DNA of 64,000 nt from Actinomycetota bacterium (GCA_039193795.1 JBCCWI010000009.1:1462-65461), one strand, 5' to 3'. Shown: positions 19,247-44,343, counted from the stretch's first letter. Notes: generated by a model from the sequence alone, not told the origin. A program made the numbers and translations.

Positions 19247-19765
19247 TCAGTCGGCGGTGTCGCCGTCGATCGCTTCGCGGATCAGGTCGGCGTGCCCGCA
19301 GTGGCGGGCGTACTCCTCGATCATGTGCACGAGGATCCAGCGCAGACTCCAGTGCTCCCCGGCCCGTGTCGTGCGGACCGTTCGCTGGTCGAGCGACGAC
19401 GCCGCGATCCGCGCGTCGGCATCGGCGATCGCCTCGTGCAGCACCTCGGTCGCGTCGTCGAACGACATCCCGTGCGAGAGCGTCATCTCGGCGTCGGGGT
19501 CGGCGTCGAAGTCGAGCGCCGCGAAGCGGGGAGCCGGAGCTTCACCGTCGAGGCGGACCCGGAACCAGATGTCCTCGACGAAGGCCATGTGGGTGATCAG
19601 TCGGCCGAGGGTGAGCCCGGAGTCGGTCAGAGGGCGCTGGAGTTCGTCGGCGTCGAGCCCGCGGGCCCGGTCGAGGAACTCGTTGCGGTAAAAGGTCAAG
19701 AAGGCGAGCAGCATCGTGCGCTCGTCGCCTTCGAGCGGAATCTGGGTCCACGGTGGCGCGGTCAT
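19247..19765 (-). CDS. DinB superfamily protein (DUF664-like)
   Basis: 172 aa with LITHMAFVEDIWF and ILVHMIEEYARHCGHADLIRE motifs. Confidence 0.8.
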   Translation of the reverse strand: MTAPPWTQIPLEGDERTMLLAFLTFYRNEFLDRARGLDADELQRPLTDSGLTLGRLITHMAFVEDIWFRVRLDGEAPAPRFAALDFDADPDAEMTLSHGMSFDDATEVLHEAIADADARIAASSLDQRTVRTTRAGEHWSLRWILVHMIEEYARHCGHADLIREAIDGDTAD

Positions 19766-19850
19766 CGTCCGCGATCCGCTGCGCCGAATCGTGCCATGGC
19801 GGCAACGATGGCACGGATCCCGCCGGCGGTCCCCGATTTCGCGGGGCCGG

Positions 19851-21077
19851 TCACCACTCGACGGGCAGTTCCTCCAGACCGAGGACGAAGTTCCCGACCC
19901 GCTCCGGCCGCTTCTCCTGCGGACCCGACAGGCGGATCTCGGGGAGCCGATCGAGGACCTCCTCGAACAACACCTTCAGTTCGAGGCGAGCGAGGTTCGC
20001 ACCGAGGCAGAAGTGGCGGCCGTTGGCCCCGAACGCCTGGTGTTTGTTGGGGGTCCGGGTGATGTCGAACTCGTGGGCGCTGGGGCCGAAGTGCTCCTCG
20101 TCTCGGTTGCCCGACAGGTAGAGCAGGAGGGTGCGATCGCCGGCGAGGATCGGCTGCCCACCGATCTCGACATCGACGGTCGCGACGCGGTTCATGTTCC
20201 GCACCGGCGTGACCCAGCGCAGCATCTCCTCGATCGCCCCGGGCAGCAGCGACCGGTCGGCCTGCACCGCCTCGAACTGCTCGGGATGCAACAGCAACGC
20301 CTCGAGCCCGCCCGACATGACGTGCCGGGTCGTCTCGTCGCCGCCGACGAGGATGAGCATCGTCTCGTAGATGAGATCTTCGGTCGACATGGGTTCGCCG
20401 TCGGGGTACATGAGCAGCGAGATGAGATCCTCGGCTTCAGGATCGGTGCGTGAACCCATCTCGGTGACGATGTAGGTGACCCACTCCATCACCGCCTCGA
20501 CCACCTGATCGCGGAATTCCTCGTCGACCCCGCCGGTGGCGAAGAGGTCCGACCAATGCAGGAGCTTGTCCTCGTCGGCCAGCGGAAGCCCCATGAGGGT
20601 TGCGATCATGCGGAGCGGGATCGACTTGGCGATGTCGTTGACGAAGTCGCAGCGACCCTGGTCGATCACCCCGTCGATCAACTCGGTGACGGTCTCGCGC
20701 AGGAAGTCCTCGTGCCCGGCGACCCGGCGGGGCGTGAAGCCCGAGGAGACCAGCCGACGCCGGCGGGTGTGATCTGGAGGATCGGCGTTGATCATCGACG
20801 GCACCGACGACTCCGGTCGCGAGCCCTTCCCGGAACAGAAGGTCTCGTGGTCGGCCTCGATGCGCTGGATGTCGGCGTGGCGGGTGATGGCCCAGAGCCC
20901 GGTCGTGTCGTCCCAGTAGACCGGCGCATGCGCACGCATCCAGGCCATGCGCTCGAAGGGATCCGCGTTGAAGTCGAGCGACATGACGACACAGTCGTCG
21001 CGGGTCGGATGCTCCGGGGTGCGATGGACGATCGTCGACGTGTCGAAGCGGTAGTCGTCCAGGGGGCTGTCGCTCAT
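19851..21077 (-). CDS. Cytochrome P450
   Basis: 408 aa with an FGANGRHFCLGANLA heme-thiolate loop and an EMLRW (ExxR) motif. Confidence 0.9.
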   Translation of the reverse strand: MSDSPLDDYRFDTSTIVHRTPEHPTRDDCVVMSLDFNADPFERMAWMRAHAPVYWDDTTGLWAITRHADIQRIEADHETFCSGKGSRPESSVPSMINADPPDHTRRRRLVSSGFTPRRVAGHEDFLRETVTELIDGVIDQGRCDFVNDIAKSIPLRMIATLMGLPLADEDKLLHWSDLFATGGVDEEFRDQVVEAVMEWVTYIVTEMGSRTDPEAEDLISLLMYPDGEPMSTEDLIYETMLILVGGDETTRHVMSGGLEALLLHPEQFEAVQADRSLLPGAIEEMLRWVTPVRNMNRVATVDVEIGGQPILAGDRTLLLYLSGNRDEEHFGPSAHEFDITRTPNKHQAFGANGRHFCLGANLARLELKVLFEEVLDRLPEIRLSGPQEKRPERVGNFVLGLEELPVEW

Positions 21078-21091
21078 GGCCGACGAGTCTG

Positions 21092-22204
21092 TCAGGGGCG
21101 CGGTTCTCGAGGAAGTCCGAGCACCCGCTCACCGAGGATGTTGCGCATGATGTCGCTCGTGCCGCCCATGATCGTGTAGGCCGGGGCGTAGGCGATCGCC
21201 TTGGCCAGCGACGCATCGGCCACCGCCTCCATGCCGAGCACCTGGGCCGCGAAGTCGGCCACCGCGATCTCGTGTTCGGTGCAGAAGCACTTCGTCGCCG
21301 CCGAGAACCCGGCCGGCGCCTGCTTCGTGGCCTCCCGGTACACGAGGATGCGGCCGAGTCGGTAGCCGGTCTCGAGTCGAGCGATCTGCTGGCGGATCTT
21401 CGGATCGGTGGTGTCGGCGGCCGCGACGGCGCGGTCGAACAGCGGCCTGTTCGAGACGAGTCGATCGATGCCGCCCCGCTCGTGCTCGAGCTGCGCCATC
21501 GTCTGCTTGAAGGCGTTGCCCTCGACCCCGACCAGGTTCTCGACCGGGACCCGCACGTCGTCGAAGAACACCTCGCAGAAGTGCTGGTTGGTCGTCATGT
21601 CCTTGATCGGACGGATCTCGATGCCGGGGAGGTCCATCGGCACGATCAACTCACTCACGCCCTTGTGGGGCGGCCCGTCCGACGACGTGCGACAGATCAG
21701 ATAGCAGTAGTCAGCCATGGCCGCGAAGGACGTCCAGATCTTCTGCCCGTTGACCACGAAGACATCGCCGTCGCGCTCGGCGGCGGTCTTCAACCCGGCG
21801 AGATCGGAACCCGCGTCGGGTTCGGACATGCCGATGCACCAGGTGGTCTCGCCGCTCAGCATCCCGGGGAGGAACTCCGCCTGCTGATCCTCGGTGCCAT
21901 AGGTGAACAGCGCGGGACCCATCTGGCGGTCGGCGAACCAGCTCGCAGCGATCGGTGCCCCGACCGAGATCATCTCCTCGCCCATGATGATCCGGGCGAG
22001 ATTCGAGTGTCCGCCACCGCCGAACTCGGTGGGCCAGGTCATGCCGATCCAGCCCTCCTCGGCGAGACGCTGGCTGAACTCCTTCGAGTAGCCGTTGATC
22101 CAGGAGTCGGTGTGCGCGCCGAACTCCGCCACCCCCTCGGCCGCGACCTTGCGGGCACGCAGCTGGAGTTCCTGCAGCTCGGGGGCGAGTTCGAAGTCCA
22201 ACAT
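21092..22204 (-). CDS. Acyl-CoA dehydrogenase
   Basis: 370 aa with ACAD domains (IGMSEPDAGSD). Confidence 0.9.
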   Translation of the reverse strand: MLDFELAPELQELQLRARKVAAEGVAEFGAHTDSWINGYSKEFSQRLAEEGWIGMTWPTEFGGGGHSNLARIIMGEEMISVGAPIAASWFADRQMGPALFTYGTEDQQAEFLPGMLSGETTWCIGMSEPDAGSDLAGLKTAAERDGDVFVVNGQKIWTSFAAMADYCYLICRTSSDGPPHKGVSELIVPMDLPGIEIRPIKDMTTNQHFCEVFFDDVRVPVENLVGVEGNAFKQTMAQLEHERGGIDRLVSNRPLFDRAVAAADTTDPKIRQQIARLETGYRLGRILVYREATKQAPAGFSAATKCFCTEHEIAVADFAAQVLGMEAVADASLAKAIAYAPAYTIMGGTSDIMRNILGERVLGLPREPRP

Positions 22205-22321
22205 CGGGATACCTCCGTGGATAGACGGTAGCGACTCGCTCCGGGCGGCGACTCATCCAGCGACAGGATCACCGACACCGTGCCGGCCCGACCCGATGAC
22301 CGGCGCGATCTAGGCTGCGGC

Positions 22322-22903
22322 ATGGCCGAAGCGAAGGGCACCAACGCGAGGGGCCGGGCCACCAAATCCCACCTCGAGATCACTGCGTTGCGCCTCTTCC
22401 TCCGGGAGGGCTACGAGGAGACCACCGTCGAGCGGATCGCCGAGGCGGCCGATGTCTCGGTGCGCACCTTCTTCCACCACTTCCCCAACAAACTCGACGT
22501 GCTGTGGGGCGATGCCGTCGAGGAGATGGAGGCGTTCGCACAGCAGCTGCGCGCCCGACCCGAACCCGACGTGTCGAGTGCGCTCGCCGCCGCGATCGTC
22601 GAGTACGCCGACGGCTACGAGTACGGCGAGGCAGACCTCCTGCGATTCCGGATCATTCACGAGTCGGACCTCTATGCAGAGCAGACCGCGCTCTACGACG
22701 GGCAGTTCCGCCAGATGTTGGGACGATGGCTGTCGGAGCGGACCGGTCGCGACCCCGACGACTTCCGGCTCGCCGCCGCCGCCGCGGTCTTCGAGGCTCT
22801 GCGGCAGTTGGTGGTGTCGACCTGGGCGGCGTCGGGTGGCGAGGCCGATGTCGGCGAACTGGCGAGCATCGCGCTCGCCACCGTGCGCCTCGACCTCGAC
22901 TGA
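22322..22903 (+). CDS. TetR family transcriptional regulator
   Basis: ATG at 22322. The N-terminal HTH reads ITALRLFLREGYEETTVERIAEAADVSVRTFFHHF. Divergent from the ACAD/P450 genes. Confidence 0.85.
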   Translation: MAEAKGTNARGRATKSHLEITALRLFLREGYEETTVERIAEAADVSVRTFFHHFPNKLDVLWGDAVEEMEAFAQQLRARPEPDVSSALAAAIVEYADGYEYGEADLLRFRIIHESDLYAEQTALYDGQFRQMLGRWLSERTGRDPDDFRLAAAAAVFEALRQLVVSTWAASGGEADVGELASIALATVRLDLD

Positions 22904-22969
22904 ACCTCCCGAGTGACATCGGACACGCGTGCATCCACCGGACGCCCCCGCTCCGTTGTCTCGATCACA

Positions 22970-23521
22970 ATGGCCTCGACGCGGCTGACCCCACCGGTTC
23001 CCCTCCCCCACGTGGTGCTGGGTCAGCCCGTCGACGGCCTTCACATCGCACCCGGCTCCACGCTCGGCGAGGTGCTCGGCACCGGGCCCACGCTGCTGGT
23101 GTTCCTCCGCCACCACGGTTGACTGTTCCCGCGGGAACTGGTCGGCGAGTTCGCCGCCATCGCCGACGACCCGAGCTACCCACGCGTCGTCTACGTCCAT
23201 CAGGGTCTCCTCGCCGACGACCGCACCTGGTTCCCCGTCGACAACCCGGACGTGATCGCGATCGATGACGCCGACGGCGACCTGTACCGAGCGCTGACCG
23301 TTCGCCGGGGCGGGCTCCGTGCCATGTTCGGGCTGCGCGCATGGGTCCGCGGCGTCGTCGCGTTCGTGCGCGGCCACCGGATCGGCCGCAAGGTGGGTGA
23401 CGGCTGGACGTTGCCCACCGTCATCGCCGTCGAGGACGGCAGCGTCGTGTGGCGCCACGACGGCGAACACGCCGGCGACCATCCCGACGTGGGCGACATT
23501 CCGCTCGCGATGAGAGACTGA
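22970..23521 (+). CDS. Peroxiredoxin-like thioredoxin-fold protein (AhpC/TSA_2, PRXL2-type); candidate selenoprotein with in-frame TGA at 23120..23122
   Basis: ORFs 22913..23122 and 23252..23521 are in the same frame, separated only by one TGA. The joined product reads ...PTLLVFLRHHG-U-LFPRELVGEF..., matching the family R[RH]xGCxxCRE redox motif with the TGA at the first Cys. The downstream 133 codons stay open with G/C-rich third positions. Confidence 0.55.
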
Positions 23522-23525
23522 CGCC

Positions 23526-24266
23526 GTGAGCGACATCCACGTGGTCGCCGTGCACGGCAACGGCGGCGGCTCGACCCGCTTCGACCGGCTCGGCGACCGG
23601 CTGGGCGATCGTGTCCGGCTCACCGCGATCGACCTGCCCGGATTCAACGGCGTGCCGCTCGACCCGATCGTCGACTCGGTGCCCACGTATGCCGATCGAC
23701 TGGCGGACCTGCTCCCCGACGACCGACCGGTCGTCGTCCTCGGGCACGGCATCGGCGGCTCGATCGCCCTCGACCTCGTCAGCCGCAGGCCCGAGACCGT
23801 CGACGGACTCGTCTTGCATGCCCCGGTCGGGGCACACCTCGACTCCCGACTGTTCCCGAAGCTGATGTCGCCACCGGTCGTTCGACGCTTCGTGCGTCGG
23901 GCGATCAGCGCCCGACCGCTTCGCGGCGTGCTCCACAACCGGTTCTTCCCCACGGGCGTACCGGAGCCACACCGGGCCCGGTTTTTCGAGGGCTACCGGT
24001 CCTGCGAAGCCTTCGGTCTGATGTTCGACATCATCGACGCCCCGTGGTTCGACGGGTTGACGCCGATCGGCGACGTGCCGACCCGCCTGCTCTGGGGGTC
24101 GGGCGATCGCGTACTCGACGCCGAGCACACCGCGTCGTTCCAGGAGAAGGCACCGTCGGCCGCGGTCGAGATCATCGACGGCTGGGACCATTTCCCGATG
24201 CTCGAGCAACCCGACGAGTACGGCGAGGTGATCGCCCGCATCGCCGAAGAACTCATCGATGGGTGA
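23526..24266 (+). CDS. Alpha/beta-hydrolase-fold protein with atypical nucleophile elbow
   Basis: 246 aa, GTG start. VAVHGNGGG oxyanion region. The elbow reads VLGHGIGGSIAL, with Gly where the GHSxGG serine is expected. Confidence 0.75.
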   Translation: MSDIHVVAVHGNGGGSTRFDRLGDRLGDRVRLTAIDLPGFNGVPLDPIVDSVPTYADRLADLLPDDRPVVVLGHGIGGSIALDLVSRRPETVDGLVLHAPVGAHLDSRLFPKLMSPPVVRRFVRRAISARPLRGVLHNRFFPTGVPEPHRARFFEGYRSCEAFGLMFDIIDAPWFDGLTPIGDVPTRLLWGSGDRVLDAEHTASFQEKAPSAAVEIIDGWDHFPMLEQPDEYGEVIARIAEELIDG

Positions 24267-26316
24267 TCCGGCCGCCCTCGTCCTGGGCGCCGGCGGCTTC
24301 GAGGCCCACGGCGTCCCGGCGAAGGCCGCCCTCCTCGACCGAGCTCGGCGCGCTGGGCTCCAGGTCCCCGACGGCATGGTGGCGCTCGACGGCGGAGACG
24401 CCGAGACCGCCGCGACCCATGCGCCGGCCGCCACCTCGTTCGCGGTGCGTTCGGCCTTCGGCGCCGAGGACGGCGCAGCGTCGAGCCGCGCCGGATGGTT
24501 CGAGACCGAGCTTCGGGTGCCGCGCGCCGATCTCGCCGACTCGATCGAGCGGGTGCGTTCGTCGCGCAACCGCGTCGACGACGCAATCCGGGCCGATGTG
24601 CTCGTGATGGCGATGGTCGACGCACAGCACGCCGGAGTCGCCTTCACCGAACCCGACACCTACGACGACATCGTCAACACGGTCACCGGCACGGCCGAGG
24701 GTCTCGTCGCAGGAGACGAGGCGGGTGACCGACTGCTCCTCCCCCGCATCGAGACGCCCGACCAACCATGGGCCCGGCGTCTGCGCGACCTGCTCGCTCG
24801 GGTTCGCCACGAGTTCGGCGATCGACCGTGGGACATCGAGTGGGCCGATGACGGCCAGCGGTGCTGGCTGGTGCAGATCCGCCCGATCACCGCACCTCCA
24901 CGCCGCCAGGAGTTCCTCACCCTGGCGAACCACGCCGAGACCCTCCCGGACCTTCCCTCGACCCTCATGACGTCGGTGATCGCCGAGGCCGGGCCAGAGC
25001 TCTTCGGCTGGTACCGGCGCTTCGACCCGAGTCTGCCGGCCGATCGTCCCTTCCTGGTCGTGCGCGGCGGCCGTCCGCTCATCAACCTGACCCTCCTCGA
25101 GGACATGCTCCGCCACCTCGGGCTGCCCACCGGTCTGGTCGCCGACAGCATCGGTGGCGACGCAGCCGTCCGGCGACCCGCCAACCTGCGGCGCCTGATG
25201 CGCAAGCTCCCCGTGCTCGTCCGGATGGGCCTGGCTCAACTCGGTGCCGTCGCCGACTCGAAGCGGATCCGGCGCCGGTTCGTCGACCTGCCCGGAGGCA
25301 GGGACACCTTCGCCGCCGCCCTCGACGACCTGCACGAGGCCTATGTGCGGCTCGTCACCGGCATGTTCCCGCTCTCGAGCGGCATCGGGCCGCCCCTGTC
25401 GATCCTGCGGCGGGTCGGCACGCTCGACGAGCACGCCGCCCGACACCGCACGATCACCACCGAGATGGCGGCGGAGATGGCCGCGATCGGTCACGATGCG
25501 GCCCGCCGCGACGAGTTCCTCTCCCGGTTCGGGCATCGGGGGGTGTACGAGAGCGATGTCGCCCGACCCCGCTACGCCGAGCGTCCCGAACTCCTCGCCG
25601 GTGCGGCGAGCGCCGACAGCGAGCGACGACGGCCGCGGCGGACGATCCGCGGCGTGCTGACCTGGCCGATCTGGGCCGCGGCCAGCCGGCCGATGGCGGC
25701 ACGGGAGTTGCTGCGCCACGACGCGATGCGGGCCTTCACCGCGGTGCGCCACGACCTCGCGCGGCTCGCGGGCGCGGCCGTCGCCGACGGCCGACTGCGA
25801 TCGGTCGACGATGTGTGGCTGCTCGAGGCCCACGAAGCACGAGCGCTCGACGACGGCTGGGCACCCGACGCCGGGTTCTGGACCGAACGCGAGGACCACC
25901 GCCGCGACCTCGCCGAGCTGGTCGTCCCGACGACGGTCGCCGCCGATCTGGATCCGGCGGCCTGGAGCAGCGTCGGGGTCGATCCGGGCGACGCCATCGT
26001 CGGCATGGGCCTGACCTCGGGTGTCGTGACCGGCCGTGCGTGGGTTCTCGACGAGCCGTCCGCCGAGCCGCCACCCCACGCCGACGAGCCGGTCGTGCTG
26101 GTCGCCCGGTCGATCGACGCCGGCTGGATCGCCACCATGGCCGCCGCCGACGCGGTCGTCGCCGAGATCGGCGGCGACCTCTCCCACGGCTCGATCCTCA
26201 TCCGCGAGTTGGGGCTTCCCGCCGTCACCAACGCCCGCGGCGTCACCCGCGCGTTCACGACCGGCGAACGCGTCACGGTCGACGCGACCACCGGCCGGGT
26301 CGCACCGGCCGAGTGA
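24259..26316 (+). CDS. PEP-utilising enzyme family protein (ATP-grasp PPDK_N domain plus swivelling phosphohistidine domain)
   Basis: 685 aa. N-terminal KAALLDRARRAGLQVPDG...FAVRSAFGAEDG and C-terminal AEIGGDLSHGSILIRELGLPAV. Overlaps the previous gene by 8 nt. Confidence 0.8.
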   Translation: MGDPAALVLGAGGFEAHGVPAKAALLDRARRAGLQVPDGMVALDGGDAETAATHAPAATSFAVRSAFGAEDGAASSRAGWFETELRVPRADLADSIERVRSSRNRVDDAIRADVLVMAMVDAQHAGVAFTEPDTYDDIVNTVTGTAEGLVAGDEAGDRLLLPRIETPDQPWARRLRDLLARVRHEFGDRPWDIEWADDGQRCWLVQIRPITAPPRRQEFLTLANHAETLPDLPSTLMTSVIAEAGPELFGWYRRFDPSLPADRPFLVVRGGRPLINLTLLEDMLRHLGLPTGLVADSIGGDAAVRRPANLRRLMRKLPVLVRMGLAQLGAVADSKRIRRRFVDLPGGRDTFAAALDDLHEAYVRLVTGMFPLSSGIGPPLSILRRVGTLDEHAARHRTITTEMAAEMAAIGHDAARRDEFLSRFGHRGVYESDVARPRYAERPELLAGAASADSERRRPRRTIRGVLTWPIWAAASRPMAARELLRHDAMRAFTAVRHDLARLAGAAVADGRLRSVDDVWLLEAHEARALDDGWAPDAGFWTEREDHRRDLAELVVPTTVAADLDPAAWSSVGVDPGDAIVGMGLTSGVVTGRAWVLDEPSAEPPPHADEPVVLVARSIDAGWIATMAAADAVVAEIGGDLSHGSILIRELGLPAVTNARGVTRAFTTGERVTVDATTGRVAPAE

Positions 26317-38770: not shown

Positions 38771-40537
38771 TCACGATGCGACCCCCGGGACGAGACCGAG
38801 CGAGATGGCGGAGTTGATCGCCGAGGCCGCGGTGTGGCCGAGTCCGCAGATCGAGGCGTCGACCATGACCTGGGAGATGTCGTCGACCAACTGGCGACGT
38901 TCGGGCGTGAGCGAGCCCTTCTGCTGGAGCACAACCATCGTCTCGTTCTGGCGGACCGTCCCGACGCGGCACGGCACGCACTGGCCACAGGACTCGTCGC
39001 GGAAGAACTGCGAAATGCGGACGAGCACGTCGACCATGTCGATCTCGTCGGTGAAGACCATCACGACACCCGAGCCGAGCGTGGTGCCGCGCTCGCGAGC
39101 GTCCTCGAGCGTGATCGGCATGTCGAGGTAGGAGGCGTCGACGAAGGACCCGGCGGCACCGCCCATCAGCACGGCGGCGAGTTCACCCGTGACCCCGCCG
39201 GCGAGTTCCAACACCTCGCCGAGGGTCGTGCCGAATTCGACCTCGTACACGCCCGGCCTCGCGACCCGACCGCTGAGGCACAGCAGCTTCGTGCCCGGCG
39301 ACCGTTCGGTTCCCCGCTCGCGGTAGCCGTCGGCACCCACCAGGACCACGTCGAGCGCGTTGAGCAGCGTCTCGGGGTTGTTGATCGCCGTCGGCTCCTG
39401 GAACAGGCCGTGGGTGGTCGGGAACGGCGGCTTGCTGCGGGGTTCGCCGCGGAACCCCTCGAGCGAAGCGAACAGCGCCGTCTCCTCGCCGCAGATGTAC
39501 GCGCCCGCACCGCGGCGGATCTCGATCTCGAATCGATGACCCGAATCCAGGATGTTCTCGCCGAGCAGCCCCGCTTCACGCGCCTGGTCGATCGCGTTCT
39601 GCAACCGCGCGGTGGCGAGCGGATACTCGCCCCGGATGTAGATCCAGCCGTTCTCGGCGCCGCAGGCGAACCCCGAGACGGTGAGCGCCTCGACGACGGC
39701 GAACGGATCGTTCTCCATCACGACCCGGTCCTTGAACGTGCCGGGCTCGGACTCGTCGCAGTTGGCCACGACGTGCTTGGGCCGGCCCTGTTCGGCGGCG
39801 ACCGCACGCCACTTGATGCCGGTCGGGAACGCAGCACCACCGCGACCCGACAGACCCGAGTCGGCGACCGCCGTGCAGACCGCGTCGGCCCCCATCTTGA
39901 CGGCGGCCTGCAGCGCCGCGTAGCCGCCGTGGGCGCGGTAGGAGTCGAGTGAGGTCGGGTCGACGACGCCGACGCGCTTCAAGAGCCGCAACGAGGGATC
40001 ACCCTGCTGGTGGAACAGCTCGTAGGGCTGATCGTCGGCGTGCACCCGGTCGGGCCCACCGACGCCCTGGACGAACTCGGCGACGGCACCCGTGGTGACG
40101 TCGGCCCGTTCACACTGCCCGAGGCACGGCGATTCGTGGACGTTCGCACCCTGGGCCCGGAGCTCGGCGATGCGGTCGGCGGCTCCGGCGATCTGGCACG
40201 CAGCGTCGACGCAGACATGGGTGACGTCGCCCGCCTGCGCGGGCTCCTCGACCCGGAACAGGTCGTAGAAGGTGGCGACGCCATAGGCCTCCGCCGGAGG
40301 CACCTGCAGTGTTTCGCAGACATAGTTGAGCCCGCCCTCGCTGATCCAGCCCTTGGCGTTCTGGAGCGCGTGGAGGGCGGGCAACAGCAGGTGCCGGTGC
40401 CCGTGCCGCTTCGATGTGCCCGCTCGGATCAGTCGTTCGCTTTCGCGAACGACGACGAACCGGCCACCGAGGGCTGCGTCGACAGCGGCGATTTCGACAT
40501 CGTCAGCCGTCTCCTCGGAGATGTACAGGTCAGCCAT
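38771..40537 (-). CDS. Fused NuoE-like/NuoF-like NAD(H)-binding flavoprotein subunit (FdsG-FdsB type)
   Basis: 588 aa. The NuoE-like part has CVDAAC...CLGQC; the NuoF-like part has GRGGAAFPTG, CDESEPGTFKDR and ESCGQCVPCR. Confidence 0.85.
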   Translation of the reverse strand: MADLYISEETADDVEIAAVDAALGGRFVVVRESERLIRAGTSKRHGHRHLLLPALHALQNAKGWISEGGLNYVCETLQVPPAEAYGVATFYDLFRVEEPAQAGDVTHVCVDAACQIAGAADRIAELRAQGANVHESPCLGQCERADVTTGAVAEFVQGVGGPDRVHADDQPYELFHQQGDPSLRLLKRVGVVDPTSLDSYRAHGGYAALQAAVKMGADAVCTAVADSGLSGRGGAAFPTGIKWRAVAAEQGRPKHVVANCDESEPGTFKDRVVMENDPFAVVEALTVSGFACGAENGWIYIRGEYPLATARLQNAIDQAREAGLLGENILDSGHRFEIEIRRGAGAYICGEETALFASLEGFRGEPRSKPPFPTTHGLFQEPTAINNPETLLNALDVVLVGADGYRERGTERSPGTKLLCLSGRVARPGVYEVEFGTTLGEVLELAGGVTGELAAVLMGGAAGSFVDASYLDMPITLEDARERGTTLGSGVVMVFTDEIDMVDVLVRISQFFRDESCGQCVPCRVGTVRQNETMVVLQQKGSLTPERRQLVDDISQVMVDASICGLGHTAASAINSAISLGLVPGVAS

Positions 40538-40576: not shown

Positions 40577-42544
40577 CTACGGGTTGGTCGCCACCACCGG
40601 CGATGCGATCTTGTCCACACGGATCGACGCGGCCTTGAACTCCGCGGTGCCGGAGTCGCGATCCCATTCGTCGTTGGTGATCAGGTTGATGTCGACGAGG
40701 TCCGGGAAGTGGAAGGTCGTGAAGGTGAGGCCCTTGGGGATGTCGGGCTGGATGCGGACCCCCATCTCGACGCTGCCGCGGGGCGACGAGACCCGCACGC
40801 GCTCGCCGTCCTCGATGCCGAGGGCGGCGGCGTCGTCGGGGTTCATGTCGAGTTCGTCGCCGTAGCGGATCGGGTTGTCGAAGCCGCCCGACTGCACGCC
40901 GGTGTTGTAGGAGTCGAGCGACCGACCGGTGGTCAGCCGCAGCGGGAAGTCGGCGCTGAGCTGCTCCTTGGGGCCCTCGTGGTGGGTGATCGAGAACGGC
41001 GACGGCTCGCGTCCGCCGAGGCCCTCCTCCCACAACCAGCCGTGGAGGAACGGCGAACCGGGGTGGTCGAGGTCGGGGCACGGCCACTGCAGACCGCCCT
41101 CCTGCTCGAGCCGCTCGTAGCTCATGCCCGCGTGCATGGGCGACAGCGAACGGAGCTCGTCCCAGAGGTTCTCGGGGGTGGGATCGCCCCAGGAGTCGAC
41201 CCCCATCCGCTTGGCGAGATCGCCGATGATCTCGTGGTCGTGGCGGCACATGCCCGGCGGGGTGACGGCGGGGCGCACTCGCTGGACCCGTCGCTCCGAC
41301 GACGTGACGGTGCCGTCGCACTCGGCCCAACCGACCGACGAGGGGAGCACCACGTCGGCGAGTTCGGCGGTGCCGGTCATGAAGATGTCCTGGACGACGA
41401 GGATGTCGAGATCCTGCAGCAGCGCCCGGGTGTGGCCCGACGCGGCCTCGGAGTCGGCCGGGTTCTCGCCGATGCAGTAGGCGCCCTTGATGATGCCCTC
41501 CTCCATGCCTTCGAGCATGAGGGTCAGGTGGCGGCCGTTCTTGGCGGGGAGGTCCATCCCGTAGGTGGCCTCGAACTTCGCGAGGTGTTCGGGGTTGGTG
41601 ATGTCCTGGAAGCCGGGGAGCTTGTTGGGCAGGGCACCCATGTCGCCGCCGCCCTGCACGTTGTTCTGCCCGCGCAGCGGCACCAGCCCCGATCCCCACT
41701 TGCCGATGTGGCCGGTGAGCAGGGCGAGGTTGCACAGCGATTTCACATTGTCGACACCGTTGTGGTGTTCGGTGATGCCGAGGGTCCAGAGGATCTGCGC
41801 GGTCTCGGCGGTTGCGTAGGCGTGGGCGACCTCTTGGATCGCGTGTGCCGGCACACCGGTGATCTGTTCGGCGTACTCGAGCGTGTACGGCTCGACGTGG
41901 GCCTTGTAGTCCTCGAACCCCTGCGACGAGTGGGCGATGAAGGCCGTGTTGTGGAGGTCGGCGGCGATGATCTCGCGGCCGATGGCGTTGGCCATCGCCA
42001 CGTCGGTGCCGACGTTGAGACCGAGCCAGGCGTCGGCGAACTTGGCCGACGACGTGCGACGAGGGTCGACGGAGTACATCTTCGCCCCGTTGTCGAGCCC
42101 CTTCAGGACGTGGTGGAAGTAGATGGGATGCGCCTCACGGGCGTTGGATCCCCACAGGAGGATGACGTCGGTCTCCTCCACCTCCGTGTAGGAGGAGGTG
42201 CCCCCTCCCGCTCCGAACACTGCCGCCAGACCGACGACGCTGGGAGCGTGTCAAGTTCGATTGCACGAATCGATGTTGTTCGTGCCGAGTGCCATGCGGG
42301 CGAACTTCTGCGCCGCGTAGTTCATCTCGTTGGTGGACTTGGAGCAGCTGAAGACGGCGAACCCCTCGGGCCCGTGCTCGTCCTTGATCTTGGCGAAGCC
42401 CTCCGCGGCGCGGGTCAGGGCCTCGTCCCAGGTGGCTTCGCGCAAGACGCCGTCCTCGCGGACCATCGGCGTCGTCAGGCGGGGCAGCGGGTCGCTGAAC
42501 CGCTTGGCTTTGCGCTTCTTGGCAGAACCGTTCGGGTATCCCAC
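40577..42544 (-). CDS. Formate dehydrogenase catalytic Mo/W-bisPGD subunit, selenocysteine-containing (in-frame UGA at 42251..42253), lacking the FS0 domain
   Basis: ORFs 42251..42646 and 40577..42220 are in one frame, joined across a single TGA. The junction reads GTNNIDSCNRT-U-HAPSVVGLAAVFGAGGGT, compared with E. coli FdhF NNVDCCARV-U-HGPSVAGL. The GTG start at 42544 is tentative. Confidence 0.8.
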
Positions 42545-42666
42545 AGTGCGGAACAGTACCGCATCGTGGAACGATTGAGAATGGCGTGACCGGGTTTTTG
42601 GCTGACGGCTAAGGCGGTGGCCGGCCCGATGACGGCCTGATGACACCGGCGCCGGACACTGCGCCC

Positions 42667-44343
42667 ATGCACCACCGTTCGCGCCGCGCGCGCCACGCCC
42701 TGTCGTTCGTCCTCGCCCTCGGTCTCGGGCTGGCGGTCACCACACCGGTCACCGCGCAGGAGGAGGACGAGGAGGACGCCGTCGACCCGGTGCCGCTGGC
42801 CGACGCGCTCGCCGCCATGGACGACGACGCGCTCGTCATCGTCGACGCGCCACCGGAGGGGTTCCCCACCTACCAGTACGGGGACGACCCGTCCTCGACC
42901 GCCCAGCTCACCGCCGACTACGCGACCATCACCGCTGCGAGCGCGGGCCTGTTCCTGTTCGGCGACGAGATCACGCTCTCCTGTGACGACGCCGAGGTCC
43001 TCTGCTCGAGCCCGGAGGACGCGCCGCTCCCCGATCTCTACCTCGGCATGTCGATGAGGTTCGCCGGCGAAATCCCACTCGACGGAGTCCCCGGCCAGAT
43101 CATCAACTACTCGTTCCCCCATTTCGACCCCTCCGCGGAGCCCTTCGAGGCGCTGCCCCAGTTTCCCGGCGACACCTGGCAGGGCATGAACCGGGTCGCG
43201 GTCGCGGAGTCGCGCTCACCGTTCGCGCTGGCGCCGCAGGTCTTCACGCCCACCGGCGGCTGGCAGACCGGAACGCAGCACACGTTCGGGATCGCGGACG
43301 GCCGCGAGGTCTGGGTGTTCGTCCCCTTCGGCGCGTCTCCGGAGGAGGTCAGCGAGATGGAGACCGCGATCATCACCGCGCTCGCCGAGGAACAGCTCCC
43401 CGAGGGTGCATCGCCCGAGACGCTGCCACAGCGGATCGCAGACTGGATCTCCCGGGGAGGATGGTCCGCGGCGGTGCACGTCCATCAAGGCGACTTCGGG
43501 ATCGAACTCCCCAGCACGATCACGGCGGTGCCGCCGACGCCACGCGGTTCCGACCGCCTCCCCATGCCGACCGAGGTGATCCTGATCGGCTCCGATGGCT
43601 TCGGGTTCCCCGACGATGAACCGCTCGTCCCCGGCCCCGGCGACCCCGCGCCCGACGACGAGACCATCACCATCGACCCGATCGACGAGGACGCCGACCC
43701 ACCCCTCATCGACACGTCCGAGGACGCCGAGACCTCCGCCGACGCGACCGACGACGGTGGCGCGGCCGCAGCCGAGGCGCCGTCGACGGCCGACGGGAAC
43801 GACGACGCAGCGGGCGGCGACGGCGGGGCGCCGACCGGGCTGCTGCTCGGCGGGACCGGTGTGGTGATCGTGGCCGGGGTCGCGCTGGCCGTCGGTCGCC
43901 GACGCAGGGGCGAACTGCAGGAGACCCCGATGGTCAAGCACGTGGACGACGGCGGTGCGGCGGCCGCCGAGGCGGGACTCGTCGTCACCGGCGCGGGTGC
44001 CACCGAACCGGACGGCACACCGATCCACGAGGACGTCGAGTTCGACTACGAGCGCGACGACGGCACCCATGTCGAGGGGTTCGGCACCCGCATGATCGGT
44101 GGCCAGACCACCTACGAGTACGCGGACGGCACCGTGCGCCGTGACCAGGAGGGGCCCCGCGCTCGGACCGTCGAGATCGCCCACCCCGACGGGACCCGCG
44201 AGGTGTGGTCGGGGGTCGAATGGTACGACAGCACCGCCGACGAGTCCTGGCAGCAGGATTCGAGCTACACCCGGTACGACGCGGTCGGCGACATCATCGA
44301 GCAGACCGACACCGACACCCACCCGTGGCCCGAGGACCCGTGA
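42667..44343 (+). CDS. Hypothetical type-I membrane protein (signal peptide, acidic ectodomain, TM, cytoplasmic DGT-repeat tail)
   Basis: MHHRSRRARHALSFVLALGLGLAVTTPVTAQEE signal peptide and a TM helix GLLLGGTGVVIVAGVALAVGRRRRG. ATG at 42640 is an alternative start. Confidence 0.55.
   Translation: MHHRSRRARHALSFVLALGLGLAVTTPVTAQEEDEEDAVDPVPLADALAAMDDDALVIVDAPPEGFPTYQYGDDPSSTAQLTADYATITAASAGLFLFGDEITLSCDDAEVLCSSPEDAPLPDLYLGMSMRFAGEIPLDGVPGQIINYSFPHFDPSAEPFEALPQFPGDTWQGMNRVAVAESRSPFALAPQVFTPTGGWQTGTQHTFGIADGREVWVFVPFGASPEEVSEMETAIITALAEEQLPEGASPETLPQRIADWISRGGWSAAVHVHQGDFGIELPSTITAVPPTPRGSDRLPMPTEVILIGSDGFGFPDDEPLVPGPGDPAPDDETITIDPIDEDADPPLIDTSEDAETSADATDDGGAAAAEAPSTADGNDDAAGGDGGAPTGLLLGGTGVVIVAGVALAVGRRRRGELQETPMVKHVDDGGAAAAEAGLVVTGAGATEPDGTPIHEDVEFDYERDDGTHVEGFGTRMIGGQTTYEYADGTVRRDQEGPRARTVEIAHPDGTREVWSGVEWYDSTADESWQQDSSYTRYDAVGDIIEQTDTDTHPWPEDP

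What the first reader, a model, noticed from the sequence alone, without database searches (positions are those of the whole stretch)
22970..23521. Candidate new selenoprotein: PRXL2/AhpC-TSA_2-like redoxin with TGA at the catalytic Cys position and hairpins just downstream
What the sequence shows:
- ORFs 22913..23122 and 23252..23521 are one reading frame broken only by the TGA at 23120..23122.
- Read through, the product is ...GPTLLVFLRHHG-U-LFPRELVGEFAAI....
- The 133 codons after the TGA stay open, keep G/C-rich third positions, and continue with a family-like C-terminus (GWTLPTVIAVEDGSVVWRHDG).
- Two hairpins follow the TGA. The first is GTTCCCGCGGGAAC at 23125..23138.
- The second, at 23139..23159, is an 8-bp stem with one bulged U and an AGUU loop (UGG-U-CGGCG AGUU CGCCG CCA). 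Its loop G is about 29 nt from the UGA.

Established knowledge:
- The AhpC/TSA_2 (PRXL2) thioredoxin-fold family has the redox motif R-[RH]-x-G-C-x-x-C-R-E at this position.
- Bacterial Sec insertion needs a stem-loop shortly 3' of the UGA with a G/U-containing apical loop.

Inference:
- The TGA falls on the first Cys of the motif. The second Cys is Pro here, giving U-x-x-P, which is unusual.
- TGA at a catalytic Cys position is the classic hallmark of Sec.
- Sec usage by this organism is independently supported by the formate dehydrogenase at 42251..42253.
Basis: partly seen in the sequence, partly recalled or inferred. Interest (0 to 1): 0.8.

Follow-up and report, generated by a model that had tools for sequence, protein, structure and literature searches.

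The report
Selenocysteine redoxin in marine actinobacterium
The apparent stop codon inside this small redox-enzyme gene almost certainly encodes selenocysteine, making it an unannotated member of a known selenoprotein-prone family: a real result, but not a surprising one.

Summary
Window 22970..23521 is one reading frame broken only by the TGA at 23120..23122. The interpretation (selenocysteine) is strongly supported.

- In 82 distinct Cys-form homologues the TGA column is the first Cys of LVFLRHFG-C-xF-C-RE.
- 22 distinct orthologues of the Acidimicrobiia-type clade, 44-79% identical, carry TGA at the same codon. Both flanks are conserved.
- A hairpin at 23139..23159 (loop AGUU, 25 nt after the UGA, -11.9 kcal/mol) meets every constraint of the published bacterial SECIS model. 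Across 20 Sec-form genes it is 93% paired, with compensatory changes in 4 of 7 pairs.
- Cys-form genes lack this hairpin.
- The first hairpin (23125..23138) is not conserved.
- TGA ends 33 of 38 window genes. A formate dehydrogenase (TGA at 42251..42253, aligned with Sec140 of E. coli FDH-H) shows the lineage decodes Sec.

The protein is a SelL-related/PRXL2-type thioredoxin-fold redoxin with motif U-L-F-P and no cysteine at all, so it has a single selenol. It is the first gene of a conserved cassette: redoxin, then alpha/beta hydrolase, then PEP-utilising enzyme.

SelL-type selenoproteins are already known, so this is a new, currently misannotated member or subfamily of a known kind. The biochemical function is unknown.

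The parts
22970..23521 (+). Complete selenoprotein gene (183 codons including Sec51): a SelL-related / PRXL2-type thioredoxin-fold redoxin with active site U-L-F-P. The stop TGA is at 23519..23521.
   Evidence: single frame; NF040769, 88.5 bits, profile positions 16-170 of 173; orthologues start MSSTRL.../MASTRL...; closest solved structure is PRXL2B.
23120..23122 (+). In-frame UGA read as selenocysteine (Sec51). It occupies the column of the N-terminal Cys of the family CxxC motif.
   Evidence: TGC/TGT in 82 distinct Cys-form genes, TGA in 25 distinct Sec-form genes at the same codon. TGA is otherwise the normal stop (33 of 38 ORFs).
23139..23159 (+). bSECIS-type hairpin inside the coding sequence. 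It has a 7-8 bp stem (conserved core 23141-23147 / 23152-23158), apical loop AGUU at 23148..23151, and 25 nt between the UGA and the loop.
   Evidence: -11.9 kcal/mol; covariation; absent in Cys forms; published bSECIS constraints.
23125..23138 (+). Palindrome GTTCCCGCGGGAAC (the first hairpin of the finding). It is probably incidental to the L-F-P-R-E-L codons and is not part of the conserved element.
   Evidence: 70% paired, no better than shuffles (353 of 500). It is absent in most orthologues.
23526..24266 (+). Alpha/beta-fold hydrolase gene. It starts 4 nt after the redoxin stop and is the second gene of the conserved cassette.
   Evidence: The same neighbour is found in the Sec-form loci that extend downstream and in several Cys-form loci.
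24259..26316 (+). PEP-utilising enzyme (PPDK_N plus mobile His domain; Rph/PigC/PEP-synthase-like). It overlaps the hydrolase stop by 8 nt and is the third gene of the cassette.
22280..22903 (+). TetR-family regulator (MftR-like) immediately upstream. It is a possible regulator of the cassette. This is an inference from position only, and the neighbour is not conserved in other loci.
   Evidence: (no TetR hit in other loci).
40577..42472 (-). Formate dehydrogenase alpha subunit with Sec-UGA at 42251..42253 (CNRT-U-HAPSV) and a GGUCU-loop hairpin. It is independent evidence that this organism decodes UGA as Sec.
   Evidence: aligned with Sec140 of E. coli FDH-H; same split gene in relatives.

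Best explanation
The gene at 22970..23521 encodes a 183-residue selenoprotein. While the ribosome is at UGA 23120..23122, the hairpin 17-37 nt downstream (23139..23159, loop AGUU) recruits SelB-GTP-Sec-tRNASec. Selenocysteine is then inserted instead of termination.

The protein is a thioredoxin-fold redoxin of the SelL-related / PRXL2 (AhpC-TSA_2, PRX_like2) group. Sec51 sits at the N-terminus of the first helix, the position of the nucleophilic Cys of the family C-x-x-C. The second Cys has been lost (Pro here; Tyr, His, Ser or Phe in the clade) and the window protein has no cysteine at all.

It must therefore work as a single-selenol enzyme:
- The selenolate attacks an oxidised substrate (a peroxide/endoperoxide, disulfide or electrophile).
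- This forms a selenenic acid or a selenenyl-sulfide.
- The enzyme is regenerated by an external thiol (thioredoxin, or a low-molecular-weight thiol such as mycothiol).

The gene is co-transcribed with an alpha/beta hydrolase and a PEP-utilising phosphotransferase-like enzyme in a cassette conserved across phyla. The three probably act on one small-molecule substrate.

Shown: the TGA/Cys correspondence, conservation on both sides, the covarying SECIS-like hairpin, Sec use in the lineage, the fold, and the synteny. Inferred: SelB dependence, the single-selenol chemistry, the reductant and the substrate.
For: 1. Cys column. Full-length homologues have VFLRHFG-C-LF-C-RE. The TGA aligns with the first Cys, as it does with C44 of LRRFGCVVCRW in human PRXL2B.

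2. Conserved TGA. It is found in L001/L004, L002, L003, L005, L006, L084, L086-L098 and L100-L102. These form one clade. Gene callers split them into fragments of 40-50 aa and 100-135 aa.

3. Purifying selection on both sides. dN/dS is 0.24 upstream and 0.23 downstream against L001, and 0.46 and 0.20 against L084.

4. Hairpin. 92.9% of cells are paired, compensatory changes occur in 4 of 7 pairs, and 0 of 500 shuffles reach this. It satisfies the loop, stem, G-position, spacing and energy constraints of the bSECIS model.

5. Control. In 82 Cys-form genes only about 3.1 of the 7 pairs form. None has 7 and one has 6. They encode D-L where Sec forms encode E-F or Q-L, which gives AGUU. The nearest 1-Cys form, P0012/L107 (TGC, C-L-F-Y), lacks the hairpin.

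6. Not a reassigned code. TGA ends 33 of 38 ORFs.

7. Sec use in the lineage. The FDH has TGA aligned with Sec140 of FDH-H and a GGUCU-loop hairpin. Relatives are identical at this junction.

8. Fold. The AF2 model of P0012 has pLDDT 91.5, with the Cys immediately before helix 55-70. The top Foldseek hit is PRXL2B, followed by Prx5, PrxQ and TlpA.

9. Cassette. It is conserved in Sec and Cys loci of Actinomycetota, Acidobacteriota and Chloroflexota.

10. No other Cys. This holds for the window protein and for 15 of 23 clade members.
Against: - No selA, selB, selD or tRNA-Sec gene lies in the 64 kb window, so the machinery is inferred only from the FDH.
- There is no experimental evidence (75Se labelling or mass spectrometry).
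- Single-sequence folding is not significantly better than shuffles.
- Five orthologues have an A-C mismatch in the stem (-4.8 kcal/mol for the minimal hairpin).
- A subgroup (L097, L098, L100-L102) uses a different hairpin whose loop mostly lacks the consensus G.
- The sequence scores below the curated cut-offs of NF040769 (88.5 against 120) and PF13911 (20.5 against 27).
- The chemistry, reductant and substrate are wholly inferred.
Confidence: 0.9

Rival explanations
1. Pseudogene or error: the TGA is a nonsense mutation or a sequencing/assembly error in a Cys-type redoxin gene, and nothing functional is made beyond residue 50.
For: Gene callers treat it as a stop. Database entries are fragments annotated as hypothetical proteins. 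The sequence falls below the family HMM cut-offs.
Against: The same TGA occurs in 22 other distinct orthologues from independent assemblies at 44-79% identity. Both flanks show dN/dS below 1. There is a covarying hairpin specific to the TGA forms. No frameshifts or further stops occur in the 132 downstream codons.
Confidence: 0.02
2. SECIS-independent read-through or another recoding: the UGA is decoded by a near-cognate or suppressor tRNA (Trp, Cys, Arg or Gly). The hairpin acts only as a read-through stimulator, giving a non-selenium protein.
For: Downstream hairpins can stimulate stop-codon read-through in general (established knowledge). The Sec machinery genes were not seen in the window.
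Against: The codon replaces a catalytic Cys, the classic Sec signature. The hairpin fits the SelB-type bSECIS constraints: G then U in a 4-nt loop, with 25 nt spacing. The same genome has a Sec-type FDH whose TGA aligns with a crystallographically proven Sec. Inserting Trp, Arg or Gly at the nucleophile position would inactivate a redoxin that has no other Cys.
Confidence: 0.04
3. Two products: termination at the UGA gives a 50-residue peptide, and the downstream part is translated separately from GTG 23252 (or another internal start) as an independent C-terminal protein.
For: An ORF with a GTG start exists at 23252..23521. Fragments of this type are what the databases hold.
Against: Called start sites of the downstream fragments differ from genome to genome (MREF..., MVYVH..., MFYRQ..., MHQG...), so no internal start is conserved. 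The 43 codons between the TGA and GTG 23252 are conserved as protein. The fold needs both halves: the beta-strand and active-site helix lie N-terminal, and the rest of the Trx fold lies C-terminal.
Confidence: 0.03

Closest known systems
NCBIfam NF040769 'SelL-related redox protein' (bacterial Cys forms; LVFLRHFG-C-x-F-C-RE)
   Same: It is homologous over the whole length (profile positions 16-170 of 173) and 45-54% identical to members that NCBI names this way. The N-terminal motif LVFLRH-x-G, the C-terminal GD-x-W-x-P and H-A-G-D-H-P motifs are shared. The same hydrolase and PEP-utilising neighbours occur in several lineages.
   Different: Sec replaces the first Cys, and the second Cys is replaced by P, Y, H, S or F. 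A SECIS hairpin is embedded in the codons for V-G/D-E-F-A/V-D. The score is below the model cut-off (88.5 against 120). The clade is distinct in the NJ tree.
Eukaryotic selenoprotein L (SelL; U-x-x-U diselenide; reported in fish, invertebrates and marine bacteria)
   Same: The thioredoxin-fold PRX-like family is the same, and Sec occupies the CxxC-equivalent redox motif (PMC2397514 and PMC2398784). The family relation is the one implied by the NCBIfam name.
   Different: SelL has two Sec residues that form a diselenide. Here there is one Sec and no second chalcogen, so no intramolecular diselenide or selenenylsulfide is possible. Eukaryotic SelL uses a 3'-UTR SECIS, whereas here a bacterial in-frame hairpin is used. 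Direct sequence comparison with SelL was not possible, because no SelL sequence was available in the tools.
Human PRXL2B (prostamide/prostaglandin F synthase; PDB 9us9/9usa), Pfam PF13911 AhpC-TSA_2 / CDD cd02970 PRX_like2
   Same: It is the best sequence-profile hit in the PDB (E 1.7e-4, aligned over about 155 residues, with C44 of the CxxC on the TGA column). It is also the best structural hit (Foldseek E 3e-6, TM 0.61-0.68).
   Different: Identity is only about 20%. PRXL2B has C-x-x-C and is thioredoxin-coupled. The window sequence alone is below the Pfam gathering score.
[quoted passage not shown]
   Same: The CDD superfamily is the same (PRX_like2), there is a single Sec, and there is no resolving Cys in the motif. 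One clade member here (L086) is U-L-F-S.
   Different: I could not retrieve the representative (MDX2448127.1), so it is unknown whether it belongs to this clade. The catalogue attributes that entry to the paper on the symbionts of the gutless worm Olavius algarvensis, not to Actinomycetota. The catalogue has no NF040769, PF13911 or SelL entry.
E. coli fdhF-type bacterial SECIS
   Same: The hairpin lies in-frame immediately 3' of the UGA, with G followed by U in a small apical loop and spacing within 16-37 nt. The window's own FDH has the classic GGUC(U) loop.
   Different: The loop is AGUU rather than GGUC, and it lies about 7 nt further from the UGA. The conserved core has no bulged U, though the window copy can form one.

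Membership tests
Bacterial selenoprotein gene (Sec-UGA plus bSECIS) | The in-frame UGA aligns with Cys in homologues | tested here: met
   TGC/TGT in 82 distinct Cys forms, and TGA in 25 distinct Sec forms at the same column.
Bacterial selenoprotein gene (Sec-UGA plus bSECIS) | Protein-level conservation continues on both sides of the UGA | tested here: met
   dN/dS is below 1 on both sides against L001 and L084.
Bacterial selenoprotein gene (Sec-UGA plus bSECIS) | bSECIS consensus: 3-9 nt loop, 4-16 bp stem, G in the first two loop positions followed by G or U, 16-37 nt from the UGA to the loop, MFE <= -7.5 kcal/mol (PMC13188914, Fig. 2A) | tested here: met
   Loop AGUU, 7-8 bp stem, 25 nt spacing, -11.9 kcal/mol. 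Covariation is shown.
Bacterial selenoprotein gene (Sec-UGA plus bSECIS) | The genome encodes selA, selB, selC (tRNA-Sec) and selD | not testable with these tools
   None lies in the 64 kb window, and the rest of the genome is not available. Indirect support comes from the Sec-type FDH in the window and in relatives.
Bacterial selenoprotein gene (Sec-UGA plus bSECIS) | Selenium is demonstrated in the protein (75Se labelling or mass spectrometry) | not testable with these tools
   This needs an experiment.
NCBIfam NF040769 SelL-related redox protein | HMM score at or above the curated cut-off (120 bits) | tested here: not met
   88.5 bits with Cys substituted for Sec, although the match is end-to-end (16-170 of 173). 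It is best described as a divergent sister clade of the named family.
NCBIfam NF040769 SelL-related redox protein | C-x-x-C redox motif in LVFLRHFGCxFCRE | tested here: not met
   The motif here is LVFLRHHG-U-LF-P-RE. The clade has U-L-F-[PYHSF].
Pfam PF13911 AhpC-TSA_2 (PRXL2 family) | Score at or above the gathering threshold (27 bits) | tested here: not met
   20.5 bits, C-terminal half only. However, homologues P0009-P0011 carry PF13911, a family profile hits PRXL2B, and the fold search agrees. Superfamily-level homology is therefore supported.
Eukaryotic SelL | U-x-x-U motif forming a diselenide | tested here: not met
   There is a single Sec, with Pro at the +3 position.
Canonical peroxiredoxin (PF00578) | P-x-x-x-T/S-x-x-C(U) peroxidatic motif and a match to PF00578 | tested here: not met
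   There is no PF00578 hit at E <= 1. The context is R-H-H-G-U, with no Thr or Ser at -3. Prx structures are only distant fold neighbours.

The most novel reading that the evidence does not exclude
This clade is a selenoprotein subfamily missing from current catalogues. It is a cysteine-free, single-selenocysteine SelL-related redoxin (U-L-F-[P/Y/H/S/F]) confined to Acidimicrobiia-type Actinomycetota, a phylum in which I recall few selenoproteins other than FDH being described. It works with an alpha/beta hydrolase and a PEP-dependent phosphotransferase-like enzyme as a dedicated three-enzyme pathway acting on a peroxide-bearing or electrophilic small molecule. The selenenic acid or selenenyl-sulfide intermediate is recycled by mycothiol or thioredoxin.
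Probability: 0.4. Interest if true: 0.5.

Novelty: new member of a known kind. Interest (0 to 1): 0.4.

Why it matters
1. Annotation. In every public record I found, this gene is split into two 'hypothetical protein' or 'AhpC/TSA family' fragments. Recognising the TGA as Sec restores a full-length enzyme in a whole clade of marine and environmental Acidimicrobiia-type bacteria. The NCBIfam model could then be extended to call it.

2. Selenoproteome. It adds a second selenoprotein besides FDH to an actinobacterial lineage.

3. Biochemistry. A thioredoxin-fold redoxin whose only redox-active atom is one selenium, with natural Cys-form relatives (C-x-x-C and C-x-x-Y), is a clean natural system for comparing Sec and Cys.

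4. RNA-protein co-constraint. The SECIS forces the peptide V-G/D-E-F-A/V-D, while Cys forms read V-x-D-L-R. This is a clear example of an RNA structure shaping a protein sequence.

5. Function. The conserved redoxin, hydrolase and PEP-utilising enzyme cassette gives a handle on the unknown function of bacterial SelL-related proteins.

None of this overturns current understanding.

Tried and rejected
- Rfam scan of the window: no family at gathering score. I recall no general bacterial SECIS model in Rfam, so this is uninformative.
- ARAGORN: no tRNA or tRNA-Sec in the window.
- Pfam scans of about 40 window ORFs for SelA, SelB and SelD: none found.
- Single-sequence folding z-scores are weak in this 69% GC sequence. 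I therefore rejected thermodynamics alone as evidence and used covariation and Cys-form controls instead.
- The first hairpin (23125..23138) was tested as part of the element and rejected.
I modelled the closest single-Cys homologue, P0012, instead.
- The Shchedrina 2007 SelL paper was not found under the PMC id I tried. The statement about marine bacteria is therefore cited second-hand from PMC2397514.
- I suspected the window FDH might be an N-terminally truncated pseudogene, because it has no Fe4S4 domain. I rejected this. Among the 120 best of 7,983 database matches, most are 71-128 aa N-terminal fragments with the same short N-terminus, and four relatives' loci have an identical TGA junction.
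- I considered global UGA reassignment and rejected it.
- I could not establish whether the catalogue entry 'cd02970 UxxS' (MDX2448127.1) is the same clade.

Full report
**Observation.** Window 22913..23521 translates as one frame with a single internal stop, the TGA at 23120..23122. The likely start is ATG 22970, because the closest orthologue begins MSSTRLHPP... against MASTRLTPP... here. Read through, the product is 183 residues...GPTLLVFLRHHG-U-LFPRELVGEFAAI...GWTLPTVIAVEDGSVVWRHDGEHAGDHPDVGDIPLAMRD. Third-position GC is 0.85 before and 0.88 after the TGA. Only one other internal TGA in the 64 kb window has coding signal on both sides, the FDH one at 42251. TGA is the ordinary stop of 33 of 38 confident ORFs, including this gene's own stop. 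The code is therefore not reassigned.

**Family.** With Cys substituted for the stop:
- NCBIfam NF040769 'SelL-related redox protein' matches end to end (profile positions 16-170 of 173), but at 88.5 bits, below the 120-bit cut-off.
- Pfam PF13911 (AhpC-TSA_2) matches only the C-terminal half, at 20.5 bits against a cut-off of 27.
- A profile of the family hits human prostamide/prostaglandin F synthase PRXL2B (PDB 9us9). LRRFGCVVCRW aligns with LRHfG[C/U]lFcRe.
- An AlphaFold model of the nearest single-Cys homologue, P0012 (C-L-F-Y), has pLDDT 91.5. The Cys sits immediately before helix 55-70, the thioredoxin-fold active-site position.
- The best Foldseek hit is again PRXL2B, followed by Prx5, PrxQ and TlpA-type proteins.

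**Is the TGA column Cys in homologues?** Yes. Protein searches returned two kinds of hits. Full-length proteins of about 175-195 aa have VFLRHFG-C-xF-C-RE, and some are named 'SelL-related redox protein' by NCBI. Many 100-135 aa fragments begin at varying points after the motif.

- Fetching the DNA for three such fragments showed a 42-50 aa upstream ORF in the same frame, ending in TGA exactly at the Cys column: VFLRHHG*LFPRE, VFLRHYG*LFYRQ and VFLRHYG*LFYRE.
- A scan of species-representative genomes gave 80 loci. L004 (the same contig as L001), L005 (an Ilumatobacteraceae MAG) and L006 (an Acidimicrobiales MAG) have TGA.
- The other phyla have TGC or TGT, with C-x-F-C, or C-T-F-T in Verrucomicrobiota.
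- A metagenome scan, using patterns taken only from the region after the TGA, gave 23 loci. Of these, 17 have TGA and 3 have TGC.
- Overall there are 25 distinct TGA forms and 82 distinct Cys forms.
- In an NJ tree all U-L-F-[P/Y/H/S/F] forms make one clade, next to C-x-x-C forms from Thermoleophilia and other phyla. Two Spirochaetaceae U-L-F-C paralogues form a separate Sec lineage.
- Against the two closest orthologues, dN/dS is 0.24 and 0.46 upstream and 0.23 and 0.20 downstream of the TGA.

These results exclude a pseudogene, a sequencing error, and two unrelated ORFs.

**SECIS.** Folding the window sequence alone is unconvincing: z is about -0.7 to -1.5 in this GC-rich context. Comparison settles the question.

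- In 20 Sec-form genes aligned without gaps (A3), a helix pairs positions +22..+28 with +33..+39, counted from the U of UGA, around an invariant loop AGUU.
- 92.9% of cells are paired, and 4 of 7 pairs show compensatory changes (G-C to A-U, G-C to C-G). No shuffle out of 500 reaches this, and slid controls reach only 11-63% pairing.
- In the window this is 23141-23147 / 23152-23158, or the 8-bp version with a bulged U at 23139..23159. The loop is at 23148..23151 and the energy is -11.9 kcal/mol.
- It meets every constraint of the published bacterial SECIS model (PMC13188914, Fig. 2A): a 3-9 nt loop, a 4-16 bp stem, G in the first two loop positions followed by G or U, 16-37 nt between the UGA and the loop (25 nt here), and MFE <= -7.5 kcal/mol.
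- The Cys-form genes are the control. At the same columns only about 3.1 of 7 pairs form. None has 7 and one has 6. They encode D-L (GAC CTG), where Sec forms encode E-F or Q-L (GAG TTC / CAG TTG), which gives the AGUU loop.
- The C-L-F-Y homologue, which lacks the second Cys like the Sec clade, has TGC and no hairpin.
- The RNA element thus travels with the TGA and shapes the peptide V-G/D-E-F-A/V-D.

There are two caveats. Five orthologues carry an A-C mismatch in the stem. A subgroup (L097, L098, L100-L102; U-L-F-P/F-K-E-V) instead has a hairpin at +16..+33, whose loop mostly lacks the consensus G.

**Does the organism decode Sec?** No tRNA-Sec, selA, selB or selD lies in the window. The formate dehydrogenase alpha gene (40577..~42472, minus strand) has a TGA at 42251..42253 in ...DSCNRT-U-HAPSVVGL....

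- The TGA splits the Pfam Molybdopterin domain.
- It aligns with Sec140 of E. coli FDH-H (ARV-X-HGPSVAGL, PDB 1aa6).
- It is followed by a hairpin with a GGUCU loop.
- I suspected a truncated pseudogene, because the N-terminal Fe4S4 domain is missing.
- However, among the 120 best of 7,983 database matches, most are 71-128 aa N-terminal fragments of this same short architecture.
- Four relatives' loci show the identical TGA junction followed by the NuoE/F-like subunit.

Sec decoding in this lineage is therefore well supported.

**What the protein probably does.**
- Sec51 occupies the nucleophilic position of the family C-x-x-C. The resolving position is Pro here and Tyr, His, Ser or Phe elsewhere in the clade.
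- The window protein, and 15 of 23 clade members, contain no cysteine at all. The only possible chemistry is that of a single selenol.
- By analogy with 1-Cys peroxiredoxins, GPx-type U-x-x-T enzymes and PRXL2B (established knowledge; inference here), the selenolate would attack a peroxide/endoperoxide, disulfide or electrophile.
- An external thiol would then regenerate the enzyme. A mycothiol S-transferase gene lies 3 kb away, which is compatible with a mycothiol-using actinobacterium.
- The gene is followed 4 nt later by an alpha/beta hydrolase, and then, with an 8-nt overlap, by a PEP-utilising enzyme related to PEP synthase, rifampin phosphotransferase and PigC.
- This three-gene order is conserved in Sec loci and in Cys loci from Actinomycetota, Acidobacteriota and Chloroflexota. 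That argues for a shared, still unknown, small-molecule pathway.

**Comparison with what is known.**
- SelL is a described selenoprotein (U-x-x-U) of fish, invertebrates and marine bacteria (PMC2397514, PMC2398784).
- A 2026 catalogue of 119 prokaryotic selenoprotein (sub)families lists a 'peroxiredoxin-like (AhpC/TSA) cd02970 U-x-x-S' entry. It has no NF040769, PF13911 or SelL entry, and no U-x-x-P or U-x-x-Y motif.
- I could not retrieve that representative to see whether it belongs to this clade. One clade member (L086) is U-L-F-S.
- Strict membership in NF040769 and PF13911 fails on score, and the C-x-x-C feature is not met. Homology at family level is nevertheless clear.

**Verdict.** This is a real selenoprotein gene with a real SECIS. 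It is a currently misannotated member, arguably a new subfamily, of a kind that is already known. The interest is moderate: annotation, Sec-versus-Cys biochemistry, and the constraint of an RNA structure on a protein sequence. It is not a surprise to specialists.

Noticed in passing
L024:1441 and L037:1502 (Spirochaetaceae MAG loci): A protein of about 510-520 aa fuses a SelL-related domain with TGA at the Cys column (U-L-F-C) to a C-terminal short-chain dehydrogenase domain (GxxxGxG, YxxxK). It carries the same AGUU-loop hairpin (GUCGCGC AGUU GCGCGAC) and lies about 1.6 kb upstream of a C-x-x-C paralogue. It is a separate Sec lineage in the tree.
   Followed up: partly
L097, L098, L100, L101, L102 (metagenome loci; TGA at 367, 1498, 957, 279, 739): This subgroup of the Sec clade (U-L-F-P/F-K-E-V) lacks the AGUU hairpin. 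It has another hairpin at +16..+33 with a compensatory G-C to A-U change. [quoted passage not shown]
   Followed up: partly
window 40577..42472 (-), TGA at 42251..42253: Sec-type formate dehydrogenase alpha subunit that lacks the usual N-terminal Fe4S4 domain, followed by a fused NuoE/NuoF-like subunit (38771..40537). Most of the 120 best matches listed in the protein database (7,983 matches in all) are 71-128 aa N-terminal fragments, which shows that this short architecture and its TGA split are widespread and systematically mis-called.
   Followed up: yes
window 23526..26316 (+); L001-L003, L005, L007, L009, L010, L012, L014, L099 and others: The cassette of SelL-related redoxin, alpha/beta hydrolase and PEP-utilising (Rph/PigC/PEP-synthase-like) enzyme is conserved across Actinomycetota, Acidobacteriota and Chloroflexota, whether the redoxin has Sec or Cys. 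Its function is unknown.
   Followed up: partly
window 19247..22903: The genes upstream of the cassette are a mycothiol S-transferase (DinB/MST) at 19247..19975 (-), a cytochrome P450 at 19851..21128 (-), an acyl-CoA dehydrogenase at 21092..22204 (-) and a TetR regulator with an MftR-like match at 22280..22903 (+). This is a xenobiotic/lipid-type neighbourhood. Only the acyl-CoA dehydrogenase is shared with the closest locus, L001.
   Followed up: partly
window 42613..44343 (+): ORF of 576 codons with high GC3 and no Pfam match. It has a signal-peptide-like N-terminus and an acidic, repeat-poor body with a late hydrophobic segment. It is divergent from the FDH gene.
   Followed up: no
L107:4006..6564: In the locus of the Cys-form homologue P0012, the hydrolase and the PEP-utilising genes are called as several short ORFs (111, 233, 396 and 150+ aa). 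This suggests frameshift errors in that assembly or gene decay.
   Followed up: no
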